Notes under the pieces: model-generated | Seen by the model: the letters and a program-made list of their open reading frames with translations, nothing else | Told to the model about the DNA's origin: nothing | Database searches by the model: none | NCBI RefSeq assembly: GCF_009914755.1 | Contig: NC_060927.1 | Source of the DNA: the human T2T-CHM13v2.0 reference genome, Homo sapiens | DNA length: 64,000 nucleotides | Strand: one strand, 5' to 3' | Shown here: positions 48,992-56,292 of the stretch, piece by piece | Position numbering within the stretch: position 1 is the first letter of the stretch | How the letters are laid out: each line of letters begins with the position of its first letter | Made by a program: the position numbers and the translations under genes

Positions 48992-49521
48992 TGAAATGCA
49001 TTTCTTAAGTAAGAATACTTGAAAGCGAAAATCAATGATCCATGGGCAAATGGATCAGAATGGATATTTTCTTAGCAGGCATGAAAACACATTAATTTCT
49101 TTAAACATCTCCATCAGAGTTCTGGGATGACCAGGTGCATTGTCAATGTGCAATAATATTTTGAAAAGAATCTATTGCCGAGCAGTAGGTCTTGATGGTG
49201 GGCTTAAATGTAATCAGTAAACTATGCTGTAAACAAATGTGCTATATTAAAAGATTTGTCATTCTATTTACAGAGCACAGGCAGAGTCAATTTAGTATAC
49301 TTTTAAGGGTCTTAGAATTTTTGGAAAGGCACATAAGCTTTGGTTTCAATTTAAAGTCACCAGCTGCATTAGCTACTAACAAGAGAGTTTGCGTCTCCTT
49401 TGAAATTTTAAAGCTGGGCATTTGCTTCTCTTTAGCTGCTTCCCTTTAGTCCTAGATGGCATCTTCTTCCAATATAAGGTTGTTTTACCTCCATGGAAAA
49501 CCTGTTTTTTACTGTGGATGC

Positions 49522-49932
49522 TTTCATGCACCTCCATGTGAAGAGACCACCAAACAGGCTTTGTGTGAGCAATAAAGCTTTTAATCACCCGAGAGCAGGC
49601 GGGCTGAATCCGAAAAGAGACTCTGCGAAGGGAGATAAGGGTGGAGCTGTCTTATAGGATTTGGGGAGATAAAGGAAAATTACAGTCAAAGGGGGGTTGT
49701 TCTCTGGCGGGCAGAGTTGGGGTCACAAGGTGCTCAGTAGGGGAGCTTTTGAGCCAGGATGAGCCAGGAGAAGGAATTTCACAAGACAATGTCATCAGTT
49801 AAGGCAGGAACAGGCCATTTTCACTTCTTTTGTGGTGGAATGTCATCAGTTAAGGCAGGAACTGGCCTTCTGGATGTGTACATGCAGGTCACAGGGGGTA
49901 TGATGGCTTAGCTTGGGCTCAGAGGCCTGACA
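49522..49932 (-). mobile_element. HERV-H 3' LTR (LTR7 family), complete
   Basis: Minus strand reads TGTCAGGCCTCTGAGCCCAAGCTAAGCC...GCATGAAA; preceded by the purine-rich PPT (49933-49945); left TSD GATGC at 49517-49521. Confidence 0.97.
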
Positions 49933-51310
49933 TTCCTGTCTTCTTATATTAATAAGAAAAATAAAATGAAATAGTGGTAAAGTGTTGGGATGGTGAAAAT
50001 TTTTGGAGGTGGTATGGAGAGATAATGGGCAATGTTTCTCAGGGCTGCTTCGAGCAGGATTAGGGGTGGCGTGGGAACCTAGAGTGGGAGAGATTAAGCT
50101 GAAGGAAGATTTTGTGGTAAAAGGTGATATTGTGGAGTTGTTAGAAGAAATATTTGTGGTGTAGAATTATTGGTGATGGCCTGGATACGGTTTTGTATGA
50201 ATTGAAAAACTAAATGGAATAAGAGAAGGAGAAAAACAGGTATAAAAGGTCTAAGAATTGGGAGGACCTAGGACATCTGATTAGAGAGTGCCTAAGGAGA
50301 TTCAGCATAGTCCTGCCAGCAGATTATTTATTTACTTCAAGAGTTTAGAGTGGCAGTATGGGGATAGCACCAGGAGATATCAACTGTGATGGCTTGGAGA
50401 AATAATGCAAACTGGCAGTGTAAACAAGAGTAGGGCATGTATGAGTAGTTGAGAACAGTGAATAGGAGTATGACTAGATAGAAGATAGTAGGGATGACAA
50501 GTTTTTTGGGGGCACAGTCTAAGTTGGTCTGGTGTCTGGAATGAGACTGGGGCCTAATAAAAAGGAGCATCTATACAGGAGCTCAAATGGGCTGTACACT
50601 GTAGCATCCTGAGGACAGGTCTGACTTCTGAGAAGCGAAAGTGGTAAAAGTATTGTCCAGTCCTTTTTAAGTTGTTGGCTGAGCTTGGTGAGGTGTGTTT
50701 TTAAAAGACATTTAGTCCATTCTACTTTTCTTGAAGACGGAGGACCATAAGGGATAAAGGTTTCACTGAATACTAAGAGCCTGAAAAACTGCTTGGCTGA
50801 TTTGACTAATAAAGGCTGGTCTGTTATCAGACTGTATAGTGGTGGGAAGGCTAAACTGAGGAATTATGTCTGACAGAAAGGAAGAAATGACTGCGGTGGC
50901 CTTCTCAGACCCTGTAGGAAAGGCCTCTACCTATCCAGTGAAAGTGTCTACCTAGACTAAGAGGTATTTTAGTTATCTGACTCGGGACATGTTGAGTAAA
51001 GCTAATTTGCCAGTCCTGGGTGGGGGCAAATCCTTGAGCTTGATGTGTAGGGAAGGGAGGGGGCCTGAATAATCCCTGAGGAGTAGTAGAATAGCAGATG
51101 GAACACTGAGAAGTTATTTCCTTGAGGATAGATTTCCACGATGGAAAGGAAATGAGAGGTTCTAAGAGGTGGGATAGTGGCTTGTACTATAGCATAGCCT
51201 GCCTTTGCTGGTGTGGCAATTAGGCCTGGTGGAACTGCCATCAATAAATCAAGCATGATCAAGGCGAGGAAGAGGAAAGAAGGAAATATGGGGAAATGAG
51301 GTGAATGTCA
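49933..51310 (-). mobile_element. HERV-H internal 3' half (3' pol/env remnants)
   Basis: Minus strand starts TGACATTCACCTCATTTCCCC, continuing the pol sequence that stops at 55156 on the plus strand, and runs to the PPT. Confidence 0.9.
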
Positions 51311-51446
51311 AGAAGAGTTTATAAGCTTTAAAAGGCCATGCTGTAACAGGTGAATGATAACAGGCTTTAATCCTTTCAAAGCATGCTATAGGATAAGATA
51401 TTGGCATTGAGCAGGGTAAGAGTGATTAGGTTTTAATAGGATGGTA
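51310..51446 (-). repeat. 137-bp inverted duplicate of HERV-H pol 54183-54319
   Basis: Ungapped alignment with 10 mismatches in 137 nt. Confidence 0.97.
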
Positions 51447-51728
51447 GCCTTAACTGATGACATTGTCTTGTGAAATTCCTTCTCCTGGCTCATCCTGGCT
51501 CAAAAGCTCCCCTACTGAGCACCTTGTGACCCCCACTCTGCTTGCCAGAGAACAACCCCCCTTACTGTAATTTTCCTTTATCTACCCAAATCCTATAAAA
51601 CAGCCCCACCCTTATCTCCCTTCGCTGAGTCTCTTTTCAGACTCAGCCCGCCTGCACCCAGGTGATTAAAAGCTTTATTGCTCACACAAAGCCTGTTTGG
51701 TAGTCTCTTCACACAGACACACATGAAA
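51447..51728 (+). mobile_element. HERV-H 5' LTR (LTR7 family) lacking the first ~127 nt of U3
   Basis: Matches the reverse complement of 49522-49805; TATAAAA at 51594-51600; ATTAAA at 51665-51670; followed by the PBS. Confidence 0.97.
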
Positions 51729-51730
51729 TT

Positions 51731-51748
51731 TGGTGCCGTGACTCGGAT
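51731..51748 (+). other. Primer-binding site for tRNA-His
   Basis: TGGTGCCGTGACTCGGAT is complementary to the 3' 18 nt of tRNA-His. Confidence 0.95.
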
Positions 51749-51871
51749 CGGAGGACCTCCCTTAAGAGATCAATCCCCTGTCCTCCTGTTCTTTGCTCCG
51801 TGAGAAAGATCCACCTATGACCTCAGGTCCTCAGACCAACCAGCCCAAGAAATATCTCACCAATTTCAAAT

Positions 51872-51880
51872 CCAGTAAGC
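51872..51880 (+). promoter_or_regulatory. HERV-H leader splice-donor position (CCA|GTAAGC)
   Basis: About 150 nt downstream of the LTR, where the HERV-H major donor lies; the -1 base is A rather than G, so it may be weakened. Confidence 0.55.
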
Positions 51881-52499
51881 GGCCTATTTTTACTCTCTTC
51901 TCCAACCTCCCTCACTATCCCTCAACCACTTTCTCCTTTCAATCTTGGTGCCACACTTCAATCTCTCCCTTCTCTTAATTTCAGTTCCTTTCATTTTCTG
52001 GTAGAGACAAAGGAGACACGTTTTATCCATGGACCCAAAACTCTGGCACCAGTCACGGACTGGGAAGGGAGCCTTCCCTTGGTGTTTAATCATTTCAGGG
52101 ATGGATGCCTCTCTGATTATTCACTCACGTTTCAGAGGTGTCAGACCATGCAAGGACGCCTGCCTTGATCCTTCACCCTTAGTGGCAAGTCCTGCTTTTC
52201 TGGGGGAGGGGGAAGTACCCCAACCTCTTCTCTCCGTGGTTCTACCCCTTCTCTGCTTTTCTGGGGGAGGGGCAAGAACCCCTCAACCCCTTCTCCTTCA
52301 CCCTTAGCGACAAGTCCCACTTTTCTAGGGGACAAGAATCCCCAACCCCTTATTTCCATGCCCCGACCCCTTTCCCACTTTTCTGAAGGGTAAGAACCCC
52401 CGAACCCCTTCCCTCCGTGTCTCTACTCTCTCTTTTCTCTGGGCTTGCCTCCTTCACTATAGGCAACCTTCCACCCTCCATTCCTCCATCTCCCTTAGC

Positions 52500-53720
52500 C
52501 TGTGGTCTCAAGAACTTAAAACCTCTTCAACTCACACCTGACCTAAAACCTAAATGCCTTATTTTCTTCTGCAATGCTGCTTGACCTCAATACAAACTTG
52601 ACAGTGGTTCCAAATAGCCAGAAAATGACACTTTCAATTTTTCCATCCTGCAAGATCTAAATAATTCTTGTCATAAAATAGGCAAATGGCCTGAGGTGCC
52701 TGATGTCCAGGCATTCTTTTACACATCGGTCCCTCCCTAGTCTCTGTGCCCAGTGCAACTCGTCCCAAATCTTCCTTCTTTCCCTCCCGCCTGTACCCTC
52801 AGTCCCAACCCCAAGCATCGCTGAGTCTTTCTAATCTTCCTTTTCTACAGACCCATCTGACCTCTCCCCTCCTCCCCAGGCTGCTCCTTGCCAGGCCAAG
52901 CTAGGGCCGAATTCTTCCTCAGCCTCCACTCCTCCACCGGGTAATCTTTTTATCACCTCCCCTCCTTACACCTGGTCCAGTTTACAGTTTCATTCTGTGA
53001 GTAGCCCTCCCCTACCTGCCCAGCAATTTCCTCTTAAAAAGATGGCTGAAGCTAAAGGCATAGTCAAGGTTAATGCTCCTTTTTCTTTATCAGACCTCTC
53101 CCAAATCAGTGAGCATTTAGGCTCTTTCATCAAATATGAAAAACCCAGCCCAGTTCATGGCTCATTCCGCAGCAACCCTGAGACGCTTTACAGCCCTAGA
53201 CCCTAAAAGGTCAAAAGGCCGTCTTATTCTCAATATACATTTTATTACCCAATCTGCTCCTGACATTAAATAAAACTACAAAAATTAAATTCCAGCCCTC
53301 AAACCCCACAACAGGACTTAATTAACCTCACCTTCAAGGTGTACAATAATAGAGTAGAAGCAGCCAAGTAGCAATGTATTTCTGAGTTGCAATTCCTTGC
53401 CTCCACTGTGAGACAAACCCCAGCCACATCTCCAGCACACAAGAACTCCAAATGCCTGAACCACAGCTCCCAGTGGTTCCTCCAGAACCTCCTCCCCCAG
53501 GAGCTTGCTACAAGTGCCGGAAATCTGGCCACTGGGCCAAGGGATGCCCACAGCCCAGGATTCCTCCTAAGCCTTATCCCATCTGTGTGGGACCCCACTG
53601 AAAATCAGACTGTTCAACTCACCTGGCAGCCACTCCCAGAGCCCCTGGAACTCTGGCCCAAGGCTCTCTGACTGACTCCTTCCCAGATCTTCTCGACTTA
53701 GTGGCTGAAGACTGACACTG
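52500..53720 (+). pseudogene. gag: HERV-H gag remnant with an NC zinc knuckle
   Basis: CYKCRKSGHWAKGC (CCHC) at 53506-53547; the second knuckle is broken by a stop; start is approximate. Confidence 0.8.
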
Positions 53721-53781
53721 CCTGATCACCTGGGAAGCCCCCTAGACCATCACGGACACCAAGCTTTGAGTAACTCTCACA

Positions 53782-54141
53782 GTGGAAAGTAAGTCCGTCC
53801 CCTTCTTAATCAATATGGAGGCTACCCACTCCACATTACCTTCTTTTCAAAGGCCTGTTTCCCTTGCTTCCATAACTGTTGTTCATATTGACGGCCAGGC
53901 TTCTAAACCTCTTAAAACTCCCCAACTCTGGTGCCAACTTAAACAATACTCTTTTCAGCACTCCTTTATAGTTATCCCCACCTGCCCAGTTCCCTTATTA
54001 GGCCGAGATGCTTTAACTAAATTATCTGCTTCCCTGACTAGTCCTGGGCTACAGCCACACCTCATTGCCGCCTTTTCCCCCAGTTCAAAGCCTCCTTCAC
54101 ATCCTCCCCTTGTATCTCCCCACCTTAACCCACAAGTATAA
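53782..54141 (+). pseudogene. pro: HERV-H protease remnant
   Basis: FLINMEATHSTL (degenerate DTGA site) and PVPLLGRD motif. Confidence 0.85.
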
Positions 54142-54162
54142 GACACCTCTACTCCCTCTTTA

Positions 54163-55156
54163 GTGACCGATCATGCACCCCTTACCATCCCATTAAAACC
54201 TAATCACTCTTACCCTGATCAATGCCAATATCCCATCCCACAGCATGCTTTGAAAGGATTAAATCCTGTTATCACTCGCCTGTTACAGCATGGCCTTTTA
54301 AAGCCTATAAACTCTTCTTACCATTCCCCCATTTTACCTGTCCTAAAACCAGACAAGGCTTACAGGTTAGTTCAGAATCTGCGCCTTATCAACCAAATTG
54401 TTTTGCCTATCCACCCCGTGGTGCCAAACTCCTATACTCTCCTATCCTCAATACCTCCCTCCACAACCCATTATTCTGTTCTGGATCTCAAACATGCTTT
54501 CTTTACTATTCCTTTGCACCCTTCATCCCAGCCTCTCTTTGCTTTCACTTAGACTGACCCTGACACCCATTAGGCTCAGCAAATTACCTGGGCTGTACTG
54601 CCACAAGGCTTCACAGACAGCTCCCATTACTTCAGTCAAGCCCAAATTTCATCCTCAGCTGTTACCTATCTCGGCATAATTCTCATAAAAACACACGTGC
54701 TCTCCCTGCTGATCGTGTCCGATTAATCTCCCAAACCTCAATCCCTTACAAAACAACTCCTTTCCTTCCTATGCATGGTTACTGTGGTCAGGATTCTTAC
54801 ACAAGAGCCGGGACCGCCCCCTGTAGCCTTTCTGTCCAAACAACTTGACCTTACTGTTTTAGCCTAGCCCTCATGTCTGTGTGCAGTGGCTGCCGCTGCT
54901 TTAATACTTTTAGAGGCCCTAAAAATCACAAACTATGCTCAACTCACTCTCTACATTTCTCATTACTTCCAAAATCTATTTTCTTCCTCATACCTGATGC
55001 ATATACTTTCTGCTCCCCGGCTCCTTCAGCTGTACTCACTCTTTGTTAAGTCCCACAATTACCATTGTTCCTGGCCCAGACTTCAGTCCGGCCTCCCGCA
55101 TTATTCCTGATACCACACCTGACCCCCATGATTGTATCTCTCTGATCCACCTGACA
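54163..55156 (+). pseudogene. pol: HERV-H pol (RT) remnant with stops; ends at the host junction
   Basis: QYPIP...SPILPVLKPDKAYRLVQNLRLINQIV...SVLDLKHAFFTIPL; right TSD GATGC at 55157-55161. Confidence 0.92.
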
Positions 55157-56292
55157 GATGCCTTCATTAACGATCTCATGTAGATTTTCTGGATAACTTC
55201 CTGCAGCTTGTCCATCAGCACTTACTGCTTCACTTTGCCTTGTTTTGTTATGGAGATGGCTCTTTTCTTAAACTCTATGAGCCAGCCACTTCTAGTTACC
55301 AATTTTTCTTCTGCAGCTTCCTCACTTCTCTCAGCTTTCACAGAATTGAAGAGAGGCAGGGCCTTGCTCCGGAATAGGCTTGGGCTTAAGGGAATATTAT
55401 GGCTGGTTTGATCTTCTATCCACACCATTAAAACTTCTTCCCTATCAGCAATAAGCCTGCTTTGCTTTCTTATCATTTGTGTATTTACTAGAACAGCACT
55501 TTTAATTTTTGTTAAGAACCTTTCCTATGCATTCACAACTTGGCTAGATATTTTGTGCAAGGAACCTAGCTTTGGGCCTATCTCAGCTTGTGACATGTCT
55601 TCCTCATTGAGCTTAATCATAACCAGCTTTTGACTAAAAGTGAGAGACATAGAGGCCATTATAGAATTATTAATTGGCCTAATTTCTATATCACTGGTCT
55701 CAGGAAATAGGAAAACCCAAAGAGAGGGATACAGATGGAAGAATGTTTTTCAATGAAACAGTCAGAACACACACAACATGTATCAATTAAATTCTTCATC
55801 TTATATGGACATGGATTGTGACATAACAGAACAATTACAACAGTAACATCAAAGATCACTGATCGCAGATTACCATACAGGTATAATAATAGTGAACAAG
55901 TTTGAAATATTGTGAGAATTACCAAAATGTGACATGGAGACATGAAGTGAGCTCATGCTGTTGGAAAAATAGCACTGATAGACTTGCTGGACGAAGGGTT
56001 GCTGCAAATCTTCTAATTGTAAAAGGTACAATATATGTGAAGCACAGTGAGATCTGATCCAATAAAACAAAGTATGCCTTCATGTGTTTTTCAAATAGTT
56101 TCTCCCAGTCTGTGGCTTGTCTTCTCATTCTCATTTTAGTGCCTTTCACAGAAAAGTTATTAATTTTAATGAAATGCAGCTTATCAATTATTTCATCATG
56201 ATTTGTGCCTTTGTGATGTATCTAAAAGGTCATCACTAAACCTAAGGTCATCTAGATTTTCTCCTACATTATCTTATAGGAGTTTTACAGTT

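What the first reader, a model, noticed from the sequence alone, without database searches (positions are those of the whole stretch)
55150..55161. Right proviral end is a pol heptamer that mimics the LTR attachment end
Seen: the element meets host DNA at ...GATCCA-CCTGACA|GATGC. CCTGACA is both native pol sequence and the exact reverse complement of the LTR start (TGTCAGG; compare 49926-49932). TGTCA also marks the other breakpoint (51306-51310). Two models are inferred. (a) An inversion between 7-bp inverted microhomologies, with about 120 nt of U3 replaced by a templated insert. (b) A fold-back reverse-transcription product in which integrase used a cryptic internal CA-3' end together with the true U5 end, still giving a concerted 5-bp TSD.
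Basis: partly seen in the sequence, partly recalled or inferred. Interest (0 to 1): 0.75.

Follow-up and report, generated by a model that had tools for sequence, protein, structure and literature searches.

The report
Retrovirus integrated using hidden internal ends
This ancient human retrovirus copy ends in the middle of its polymerase gene at a short motif that imitates the normal viral tip, a second copy ends at the same base and eight more end at a similar motif, all with clean 5-base insertion scars, so the viral integrase likely accepted these internal motifs as substitute ends.

Summary
Confirmed and extended. The HERV-H-type provirus at 49522-55156 is flanked by a true 5-bp duplication (GATGC); its right end is native pol ending in CCTGACA, the same heptamer as the LTR tip. 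The heptamer alone is not beyond chance, but its use recurs. A provirus on chr12 runs from a normal 5' LTR to the same pol base, with its own perfect 5-bp duplication and no 3' half, which no inversion explains. Eight more copies lack the 3' LTR, stop at AAGAAGACA in the polypurine tract and have perfect duplications. Six control sites showed no break. The family's normal right end reads TGAAA, not CA (98 of 100 listed). Best reading (0.77): integrase used the internal motif as an end, here paired with the true U5 end, which forces the inversion; the inner junction is a repair or fold-back joint whose 136-nt templated insert carries 7 strand-coordinated C-to-T changes. A later microhomology inversion (0.17) is not excluded for this locus because ape orthologs could not be read. 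Closest precedent: HTLV-1 proviruses lacking the 5' LTR. I found no report for HERV-H.

The parts
49517..49521 (.). Left copy of the 5-bp target-site duplication GATGC, inside an older host repeat
   Evidence: 5-nt overlap of the flanks in 5 of 6 other copies of the host repeat
49522..49932 (-). Complete 3' LTR; its true U5 end (TGAAA, not CA) forms the left host junction
49933..51305 (-). 3' internal half (pol continuation through the polypurine tract); starts at the base that follows CCTGACA in intact copies; PPT/U3 boundary reads GACA-GGAA-TGTC
51306..51310 (-). TGACA shared by both halves of pol (5-nt overlap; also equals the first 5 nt of the LTR on the other strand)
51311..51446 (-). 136-nt templated copy of pol 54183-54318 with 7 non-CpG C-to-T changes on the viral plus strand
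51447..51728 (+). 5' LTR lacking the first 127 nt of U3; 19 of 282 positions differ from the other LTR
51731..51748 (+). Primer-binding site for tRNA-His
   Evidence: its complement lies at the 3' end of genes that ARAGORN calls tRNA-His, 2 of 2 tested
51749..55156 (+). Broken gag-pro-pol 5' half; protease piece 53770-54138, reverse-transcriptase piece 54142-54549
   Evidence: Pfam RVP and RVT_1 above cut-off
55150..55156 (+). Cryptic attachment end CCTGACA in pol, joined directly to host DNA
   Evidence: the same base ends the chr12 provirus
55157..55161 (.). Right copy of the target-site duplication GATGC

Best explanation
The provirus ends at an internal pol motif (CCTGACA) joined to host DNA with an exact 5-bp duplication, and the viral integrase likely took this motif for a viral end and inserted it together with the true U5 end in one concerted reaction. 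Shown: the map, the duplication, the same end at chr12, eight further LTR-less ends at AAGAAGACA, the TGAAA right end of the family, the C-to-T cluster. Inferred: (1) the DNA had a defective U3 end (127 nt short), so the internal motif was the only U3-like end; (2) the motif points the same way as the U5 end, so pairing the two inserts the two halves head to head, which is the inversion, whereas pairing it with the U3 end gives the simple truncation seen on chr12; (3) the inner junction was closed by a strand that ran from the short U3 end onto pol, copied 136 nt and slipped to the break by partial homology; this stretch stayed single-stranded and was deaminated. Whether that strand was made by reverse transcriptase before integration (fold-back, roughly 45%), by host repair after it (35%) or after an attack of the U3 end on the motif (20%) is my estimate, not tested.
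For: chr12:88,349,942-88,353,885 is GTTTG | full LTR, PBS, gag-pol to the same CCTGACA | GTTTG, with no 3' half in the following 9 kb; its own LTR ends TGAAA, so a deletion to the normal right end would have had 1 bp of exact homology. Of 34 PPT sites not followed by GG, 9 have no LTR behind them; 7 of the 9 have a perfect 5-bp duplication directly at GACA, 1 has it after 10 extra nt that end in TGACA, 1 has none; an eighth perfect case is nested in another copy on chr2. No break at six control sites. Normal U5 end TGAAA in 98 of the first 100 of 362 listed. Insert: 7 of 7 changes at conserved non-CpG columns are C-to-T, 7 of 41 C against 10 of 966 in the rest of the element examined, Fisher p 1.6e-6. 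Precedent for integrase joining an internal sequence with a proper repeat: HTLV-1 (PMC6950816, passage).
Against: No ortholog was read, so the chr3 inversion is not dated against the insertion. The pol end is rare: 2 of about 496 copies, one of them this locus; no second inversion of this type was found (one candidate was intact). The identical heptamer at 54559-54565 gave no break in 20 of 25 hits read, so the heptamer alone does not explain the choice of site. There is no G-to-A excess elsewhere (4 of 369 G), so the deamination does not point to a virion-packaged enzyme and fits nuclear repair as well; the CC-context bias is not significant (5 of 15 against 2 of 26, p 0.08). In 9 of the 10 loci the cryptic end replaces the right end; only here is it paired with U5. 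Intact-copy counts were not measured for the control sites.
Confidence: 0.77

Rival explanations
1. A normal provirus integrated first; later a replication-based rearrangement inverted its 5' half between the 7-bp inverted match of LTR tip and pol, and the same event replaced U3 with a templated insert.
For: 7-bp inverted match at the right junction, reciprocal halves with a 5-nt overlap, templated insert; clustered C-to-T changes also arise on single strands during such repair (own knowledge). It keeps the duplication by construction.
Against: It does not explain chr12 or the eight PPT-ended copies and must treat the shared base as coincidence; by my rough arithmetic a 6-kb element holds about a thousand inverted 7-mer pairs. 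The U3-to-insert joint has no microhomology. The insert lacks both changes that the element's own pol carries at conserved columns of the template, weakly favouring an early copy.
Confidence: 0.17
2. One-ended integration: integrase joined only the U5 end and host polymerases joined the other end after template switches, by chance at the position that leaves a 5-bp repeat.
For: Described for HIV and ASLV, including copied viral segments in either orientation (PMC5041404, discussion read); fits the inner junction well.
Against: There the host repeats are usually much larger or host DNA is lost; here 10 loci have exactly 5 bp and end at GACA.
Confidence: 0.05
3. Assembly artefact.
For: Inverted repeats inside a high-copy family can be misjoined; reads were not available.
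Against: The insert differs from its template at 10 of 136 positions and the LTRs at 19 of 282, so neither is an assembly duplicate; host flanks are in register.
Confidence: 0.01

Closest known systems
HTLV-1 type 2 defective proviruses (Miyazaki 2007, as summarised in PMC6950816; passage read, original not held)
   Same: The family's short repeat is joined to an internal pol or env sequence at one end and to a true LTR end at the other, read as integrase recognising an internal sequence.
   Different: Those lack the 5' LTR (PMC9635170, passages read, says type 2 forms of HTLV-1 and BLV are never 3'-LTR-deficient) and are somatic. Here the ends recur at two fixed GACA motifs, nine loci lack the 3' LTR, they are germ-line, and this locus keeps both halves as an inversion.
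Aberrant one-ended integrations of HIV-1 and ASLV (PMC5041404; passages and discussion read)
   Same: A bad viral end is extended on viral templates in either orientation, as at the inner junction here.
   Different: The host junction there is host-made, with large duplications or deletions; here both host junctions look integrase-made.
Internal cleavage of the 2-LTR circle junction by HIV-1 integrase, and circles as a source of integration (PMC1905944, PMC4372172; abstracts read)
   Same: Integrase can cut at an internal end-like sequence; the PPT/U3 boundary here, GACA-GGAA-TGTC, has the inverted-repeat geometry of such a junction.
   Different: Those are true LTR-LTR junctions; the pol site has only one half-site, and the PPT site would lie in a one-LTR molecule.
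Microhomology-mediated template-switch inversions (FoSTeS/MMBIR; own knowledge)
   Same: Inversion with short homologies and a templated insert.
   Different: Does not predict the same end at other loci with new target duplications.

Membership tests
HERV-H provirus | Primer-binding site for tRNA-His | tested here: met
HERV-H provirus | Retroviral protease and reverse-transcriptase remnants between LTRs | tested here: met
   Pfam RVP, RVT_1; 3 of 5 pieces scanned had no hit
HERV-H provirus | High-copy family (about 1000 members, PMC4724089 passage) | tested here: met
   472 exact pol 18-mers; 1092 candidates
HERV-H provirus | LTR matches the LTR7 library entry | not testable with these tools
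   no repeat library; the names HERV-H and LTR7 are recalled
Concerted integrase-made insertion | Target duplication of the family's length at both ends, no host loss | tested here: met
   GATGC twice; 5-nt overlap in 5 of 6 host-repeat copies; a colinear copy on chr3 has GTTTT twice
Concerted integrase-made insertion | Joined end terminates in an att-like CA | tested here: met
   CCTGACA, 7 of 7 with the U3 tip; the true U5 end is the non-canonical TGAAA
Concerted integrase-made insertion | Structure present from the time of insertion (orthologs) | not testable with these tools
   no primate genomes other than this one
HTLV-1-type defective provirus with one internal end | Family repeat joined to an internal sequence | tested here: met
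   this locus, chr12 and eight PPT-ended loci
HTLV-1-type defective provirus with one internal end | 5' LTR absent, 3' part colinear | tested here: not met
   this locus keeps 282 nt of the 5' LTR inside an inversion; the other nine lack the 3' LTR
Microhomology-mediated inversion (FoSTeS/MMBIR) | Microhomology at each joint | tested here: inconclusive
   7 bp at the right joint, 1 bp plus partial homology at insert-to-pol, none at U3-to-insert
Microhomology-mediated inversion (FoSTeS/MMBIR) | An unrearranged ancestral allele | not testable with these tools
   no orthologs
APOBEC3-type mutation cluster | Strand-coordinated C-to-T excess | tested here: met
   7 of 41 against 10 of 966; other copies have 0-2 over the same 136 nt
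APOBEC3-type mutation cluster | Enzyme-specific 5' context (CC or TC) | tested here: inconclusive
   5 of 15 CC against 2 of 26 other, p 0.08

The most novel reading that the evidence does not exclude
HERV-H spread with a degenerate right attachment site (TGAAA), and its integrase regularly bypassed it: about 2% of copies went in through internal GACA motifs. The eight 3'-LTR-less copies are germ-line fossils of one-LTR circles (or the gapped circular reverse-transcription intermediate) opened by integrase at GACA-GGAA-TGTC, a natural mimic of a circle junction, and this locus is the inversion made when an internal motif is paired with U5.
Probability: 0.35. Interest if true: 0.8.

Novelty: new variant of a known kind. 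Interest (0 to 1): 0.62.

Why it matters
It shows, in natural germ-line insertions, which non-LTR ends a retroviral integrase accepts in a fully concerted reaction, at fixed and recurring motifs. It offers a countable fossil record for the long-debated question whether circular viral DNA can integrate. It also means that some HERV-H copies catalogued as later deletions or inversions were born that way, so their missing LTR says nothing about later decay and they escape solo-LTR formation. No effect on the host is shown; the RefSeq enhancer at 49711-50211 overlaps the intact LTR and not the cryptic end.

Tried and rejected
Heptamer enrichment in the window: not significant. More breaks at the pol site: none among hits (5 of 5 intact; 1 new, intact; 11 of 11 intact; no new place); 4 of the 11 hits were unrelated DNA. 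Control sites: 54565 (20 of 25 hits read, all intact), 53265 (0 hits), the CA 7 nt upstream of the site (0), 53717 (1 hit, intact), 54355 (0), 50867 (2 hits, intact). Reciprocal fragments: the pattern was too loose; 1 of its 22 hits differed at both upstream positions and was intact; the other 21 were not read. chr11:70.23 Mb has no duplication and is followed by Alu-like sequence: not counted. Sisterhood with the chr3:195.69 Mb copy: only 1 rare allele shared over 2.4 kb, rejected. Literature: searches returned no paper on HERV-H copies ending at internal motifs (listings seen; only the papers named were opened; no supplements read, and locus tables in supplements or subscription papers may list these copies). 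Four primary papers were not held. Earlier findings of this scan were not open.

Full report
Observation. From left to right: host GATGC (49517-49521); a complete LTR on the minus strand with its U5 end at the host junction (49522-49932); the 3' internal half on the minus strand (49933-51310); a 136-nt copy of pol (51311-51446, template 54183-54318); a plus-strand 5' LTR lacking 127 nt of U3 (51447-51728); a tRNA-His primer site; broken gag-pro-pol (protease and RT pieces) up to CCTGACA at 55156; host GATGC. Two colinear copies (chr3:195.69 Mb, chr1:48.09 Mb) show that the halves of pol meet at this motif with a 5-nt overlap. The host flanks belong to one older repeat and overlap by exactly 5 nt in 5 of 6 other copies of it, so the duplication is real and no host DNA is lost. 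The names HERV-H and LTR7 are recalled. The LTRs differ at 19 of 282 positions, roughly 15-25 million years at recalled neutral rates, so ape orthologs should exist.

The heptamer by itself means little: 11 copies in the window against 7.5 expected, three in the element's forward half. The test is recurrence.

Recurrence at the pol site. A genome-wide exact search for the 15 nt ending in the motif, followed by a base other than T, gave 11 hits: 4 unrelated, 5 intact pol copies with a point change, this locus, and chr12:88.35 Mb. The chr12 element is GTTTG, full LTR, primer site, gag-pol up to the same CCTGACA, GTTTG, and no viral DNA in the next 9 kb. Its LTR ends in TGAAA, so a later deletion to the normal right end would have had one base of exact homology. 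Against 472 intact exact matches and 22 intact variants this is 2 of about 496. Copies with changes in the search word are missed, so both numbers are lower bounds.

A second cryptic end. A nested copy on chr2:34.70 Mb has a true U3 tip at one end, stops at AAGAAGACA in the polypurine tract at the other, and is flanked by a 5-bp duplication. Searching this site gave 414 matches followed by GG (not read one by one) and 34 followed by other bases. Of the 34, 25 are intact and 9 have no LTR behind them. For all 9 I read the 5' end: 7 have a perfect duplication directly at GACA (chr16 CTGAT, chrX ATAGC, chr3:57.35 GTTGC, chr4:155.14 GTGTT, chr4:159.45 GTAAT, chr9 GTCAG, chr5 TGGAC), chr19 has it after 10 extra nt ending in TGACA, chr11 has none. 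That is 7 of 448 in this search, 8 with chr2. A chance 5-mer match is about 1 in 900. Such copies cannot multiply as retroviruses without a 3' R (established knowledge), and each has its own target site, so they are independent events.

Controls. Six other sites gave no break: the identical heptamer at 54565 (20 of 25 hits read), 53265, a CA 7 nt upstream of the site, 53717, 54355 and 50867. These patterns catch only part of possible flanks and their intact counts were not measured, so they are modest controls. They do say that sequence mimicry alone is not enough; the pol site also has the TT that follows an unprocessed end, matching the PPT/U3 boundary over 10 nt, which 54565 lacks.

The normal right end is itself odd: TGAAA in 98 and TGACA in 2 of the first 100 of 362 LTR-primer-site junctions listed, and integrated 3' ends read TGAAA. 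A weak U5 end is a plausible reason why better CA motifs inside are used (inference).

The inner junction. At conserved non-CpG columns, compared with 29 other copies chosen for likeness to this element's pol, the insert has 7 changes, all C-to-T on the viral plus strand: 7 of 41 C against 10 of 966 in the 3.1 kb of the element examined (p 1.6e-6); the other copies have 0-2 over the same stretch. This marks a long-lived single strand. The CC bias is not significant and there is no G-to-A excess elsewhere, so it does not tell reverse transcription from nuclear repair. The U3-to-insert joint has no microhomology; the insert-to-pol joint has one base plus partial homology.

Mechanism. The pol motif points the same way as the U5 end. 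Paired with the U3 end it yields a simple truncation (chr12). Paired with the U5 end, as a DNA with a short U3 end would need, it inserts the two halves head to head, and the free inner ends must be joined: this locus. That geometry is deduction; the pairing is inferred from the duplication and the recurrence. I give it 0.77. A later microhomology inversion (0.17) explains this locus alone and leaves the shared base with chr12 to chance. One-ended integration with host repair (PMC5041404) explains the inner junction but usually not an exact short repeat (0.05).

Comparison and novelty. HTLV-1 proviruses whose 6-bp repeat is joined to an internal sequence are the precedent (PMC6950816, passage); they lack the 5' LTR (PMC9635170, passages). 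Internal cleavage at circle junctions is described for HIV-1 integrase (PMC1905944, abstract) and circles as a source of integration are argued in PMC4372172 (abstract). The PPT/U3 boundary here reads GACA-GGAA-TGTC, an inverted pair around four bases as in a circle junction, so the PPT-ended copies could be integrated one-LTR circles; stalled plus-strand synthesis at the PPT would give the same ends, and I could not separate the two. Seven searches returned no description for HERV-H; the library lacks most subscription papers and I read no supplements. Verdict: new variant of a known kind, interest 0.62. The single locus is a curiosity; the recurrent class it led to is the result.

Noticed in passing
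G000:C2:34,701,500-34,709,740 (L044, L045): One copy nested in the pol of another with a 5-bp duplication; the inner one lacks its 3' LTR and ends at the PPT GACA; the outer one has further deletions. The target lies within the stretch homologous to this locus's insert template.
   Followed up: partly
window 54171-54320 and L013 (chr3:195.69 Mb): No difference over 150 nt, against 5-8% in most other segments, with one allele shared by these two alone among 29 copies; possible gene conversion, but the copy was picked as best hit of about 1000.
   Followed up: partly
L138 and L145 (chr19:30.96 Mb): PPT GACA followed by 10 nt of unknown origin ending in TGACA, then GAGGG, which equals the 5' flank: a variant cryptic end.
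   Followed up: partly
L008 (chr10:85.47 Mb): Non-viral DNA that matches this locus's right junction over 21 nt, across the junction; likely coincidence.
   Followed up: no
ten loci with cryptic ends: Five of the ten duplications begin with GT as read on the strand of the 5' LTR (nine loci) or the plus strand (this one), hinting at a target preference; not tested against normal copies.
   Followed up: no
L097 (chr16) and L144 (chr5): Short tandem doubling at the U5 end or primer site of the 5' LTR in two of the 3'-LTR-less copies; may relate to a faulty right end.
   Followed up: no
G000:C1:112,827,525 and 112,833,090; C3:165,492,646 and 165,498,067: Pairs of PPT sites in opposite orientation about 5.5 kb apart: further inverted or nested copies.
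   Followed up: no
window, sequence following 55156 in intact copies: The antisense strand before the motif is purine-rich with two GGGG runs, like a polypurine tract; it could stall plus-strand synthesis at this point.
   Followed up: no
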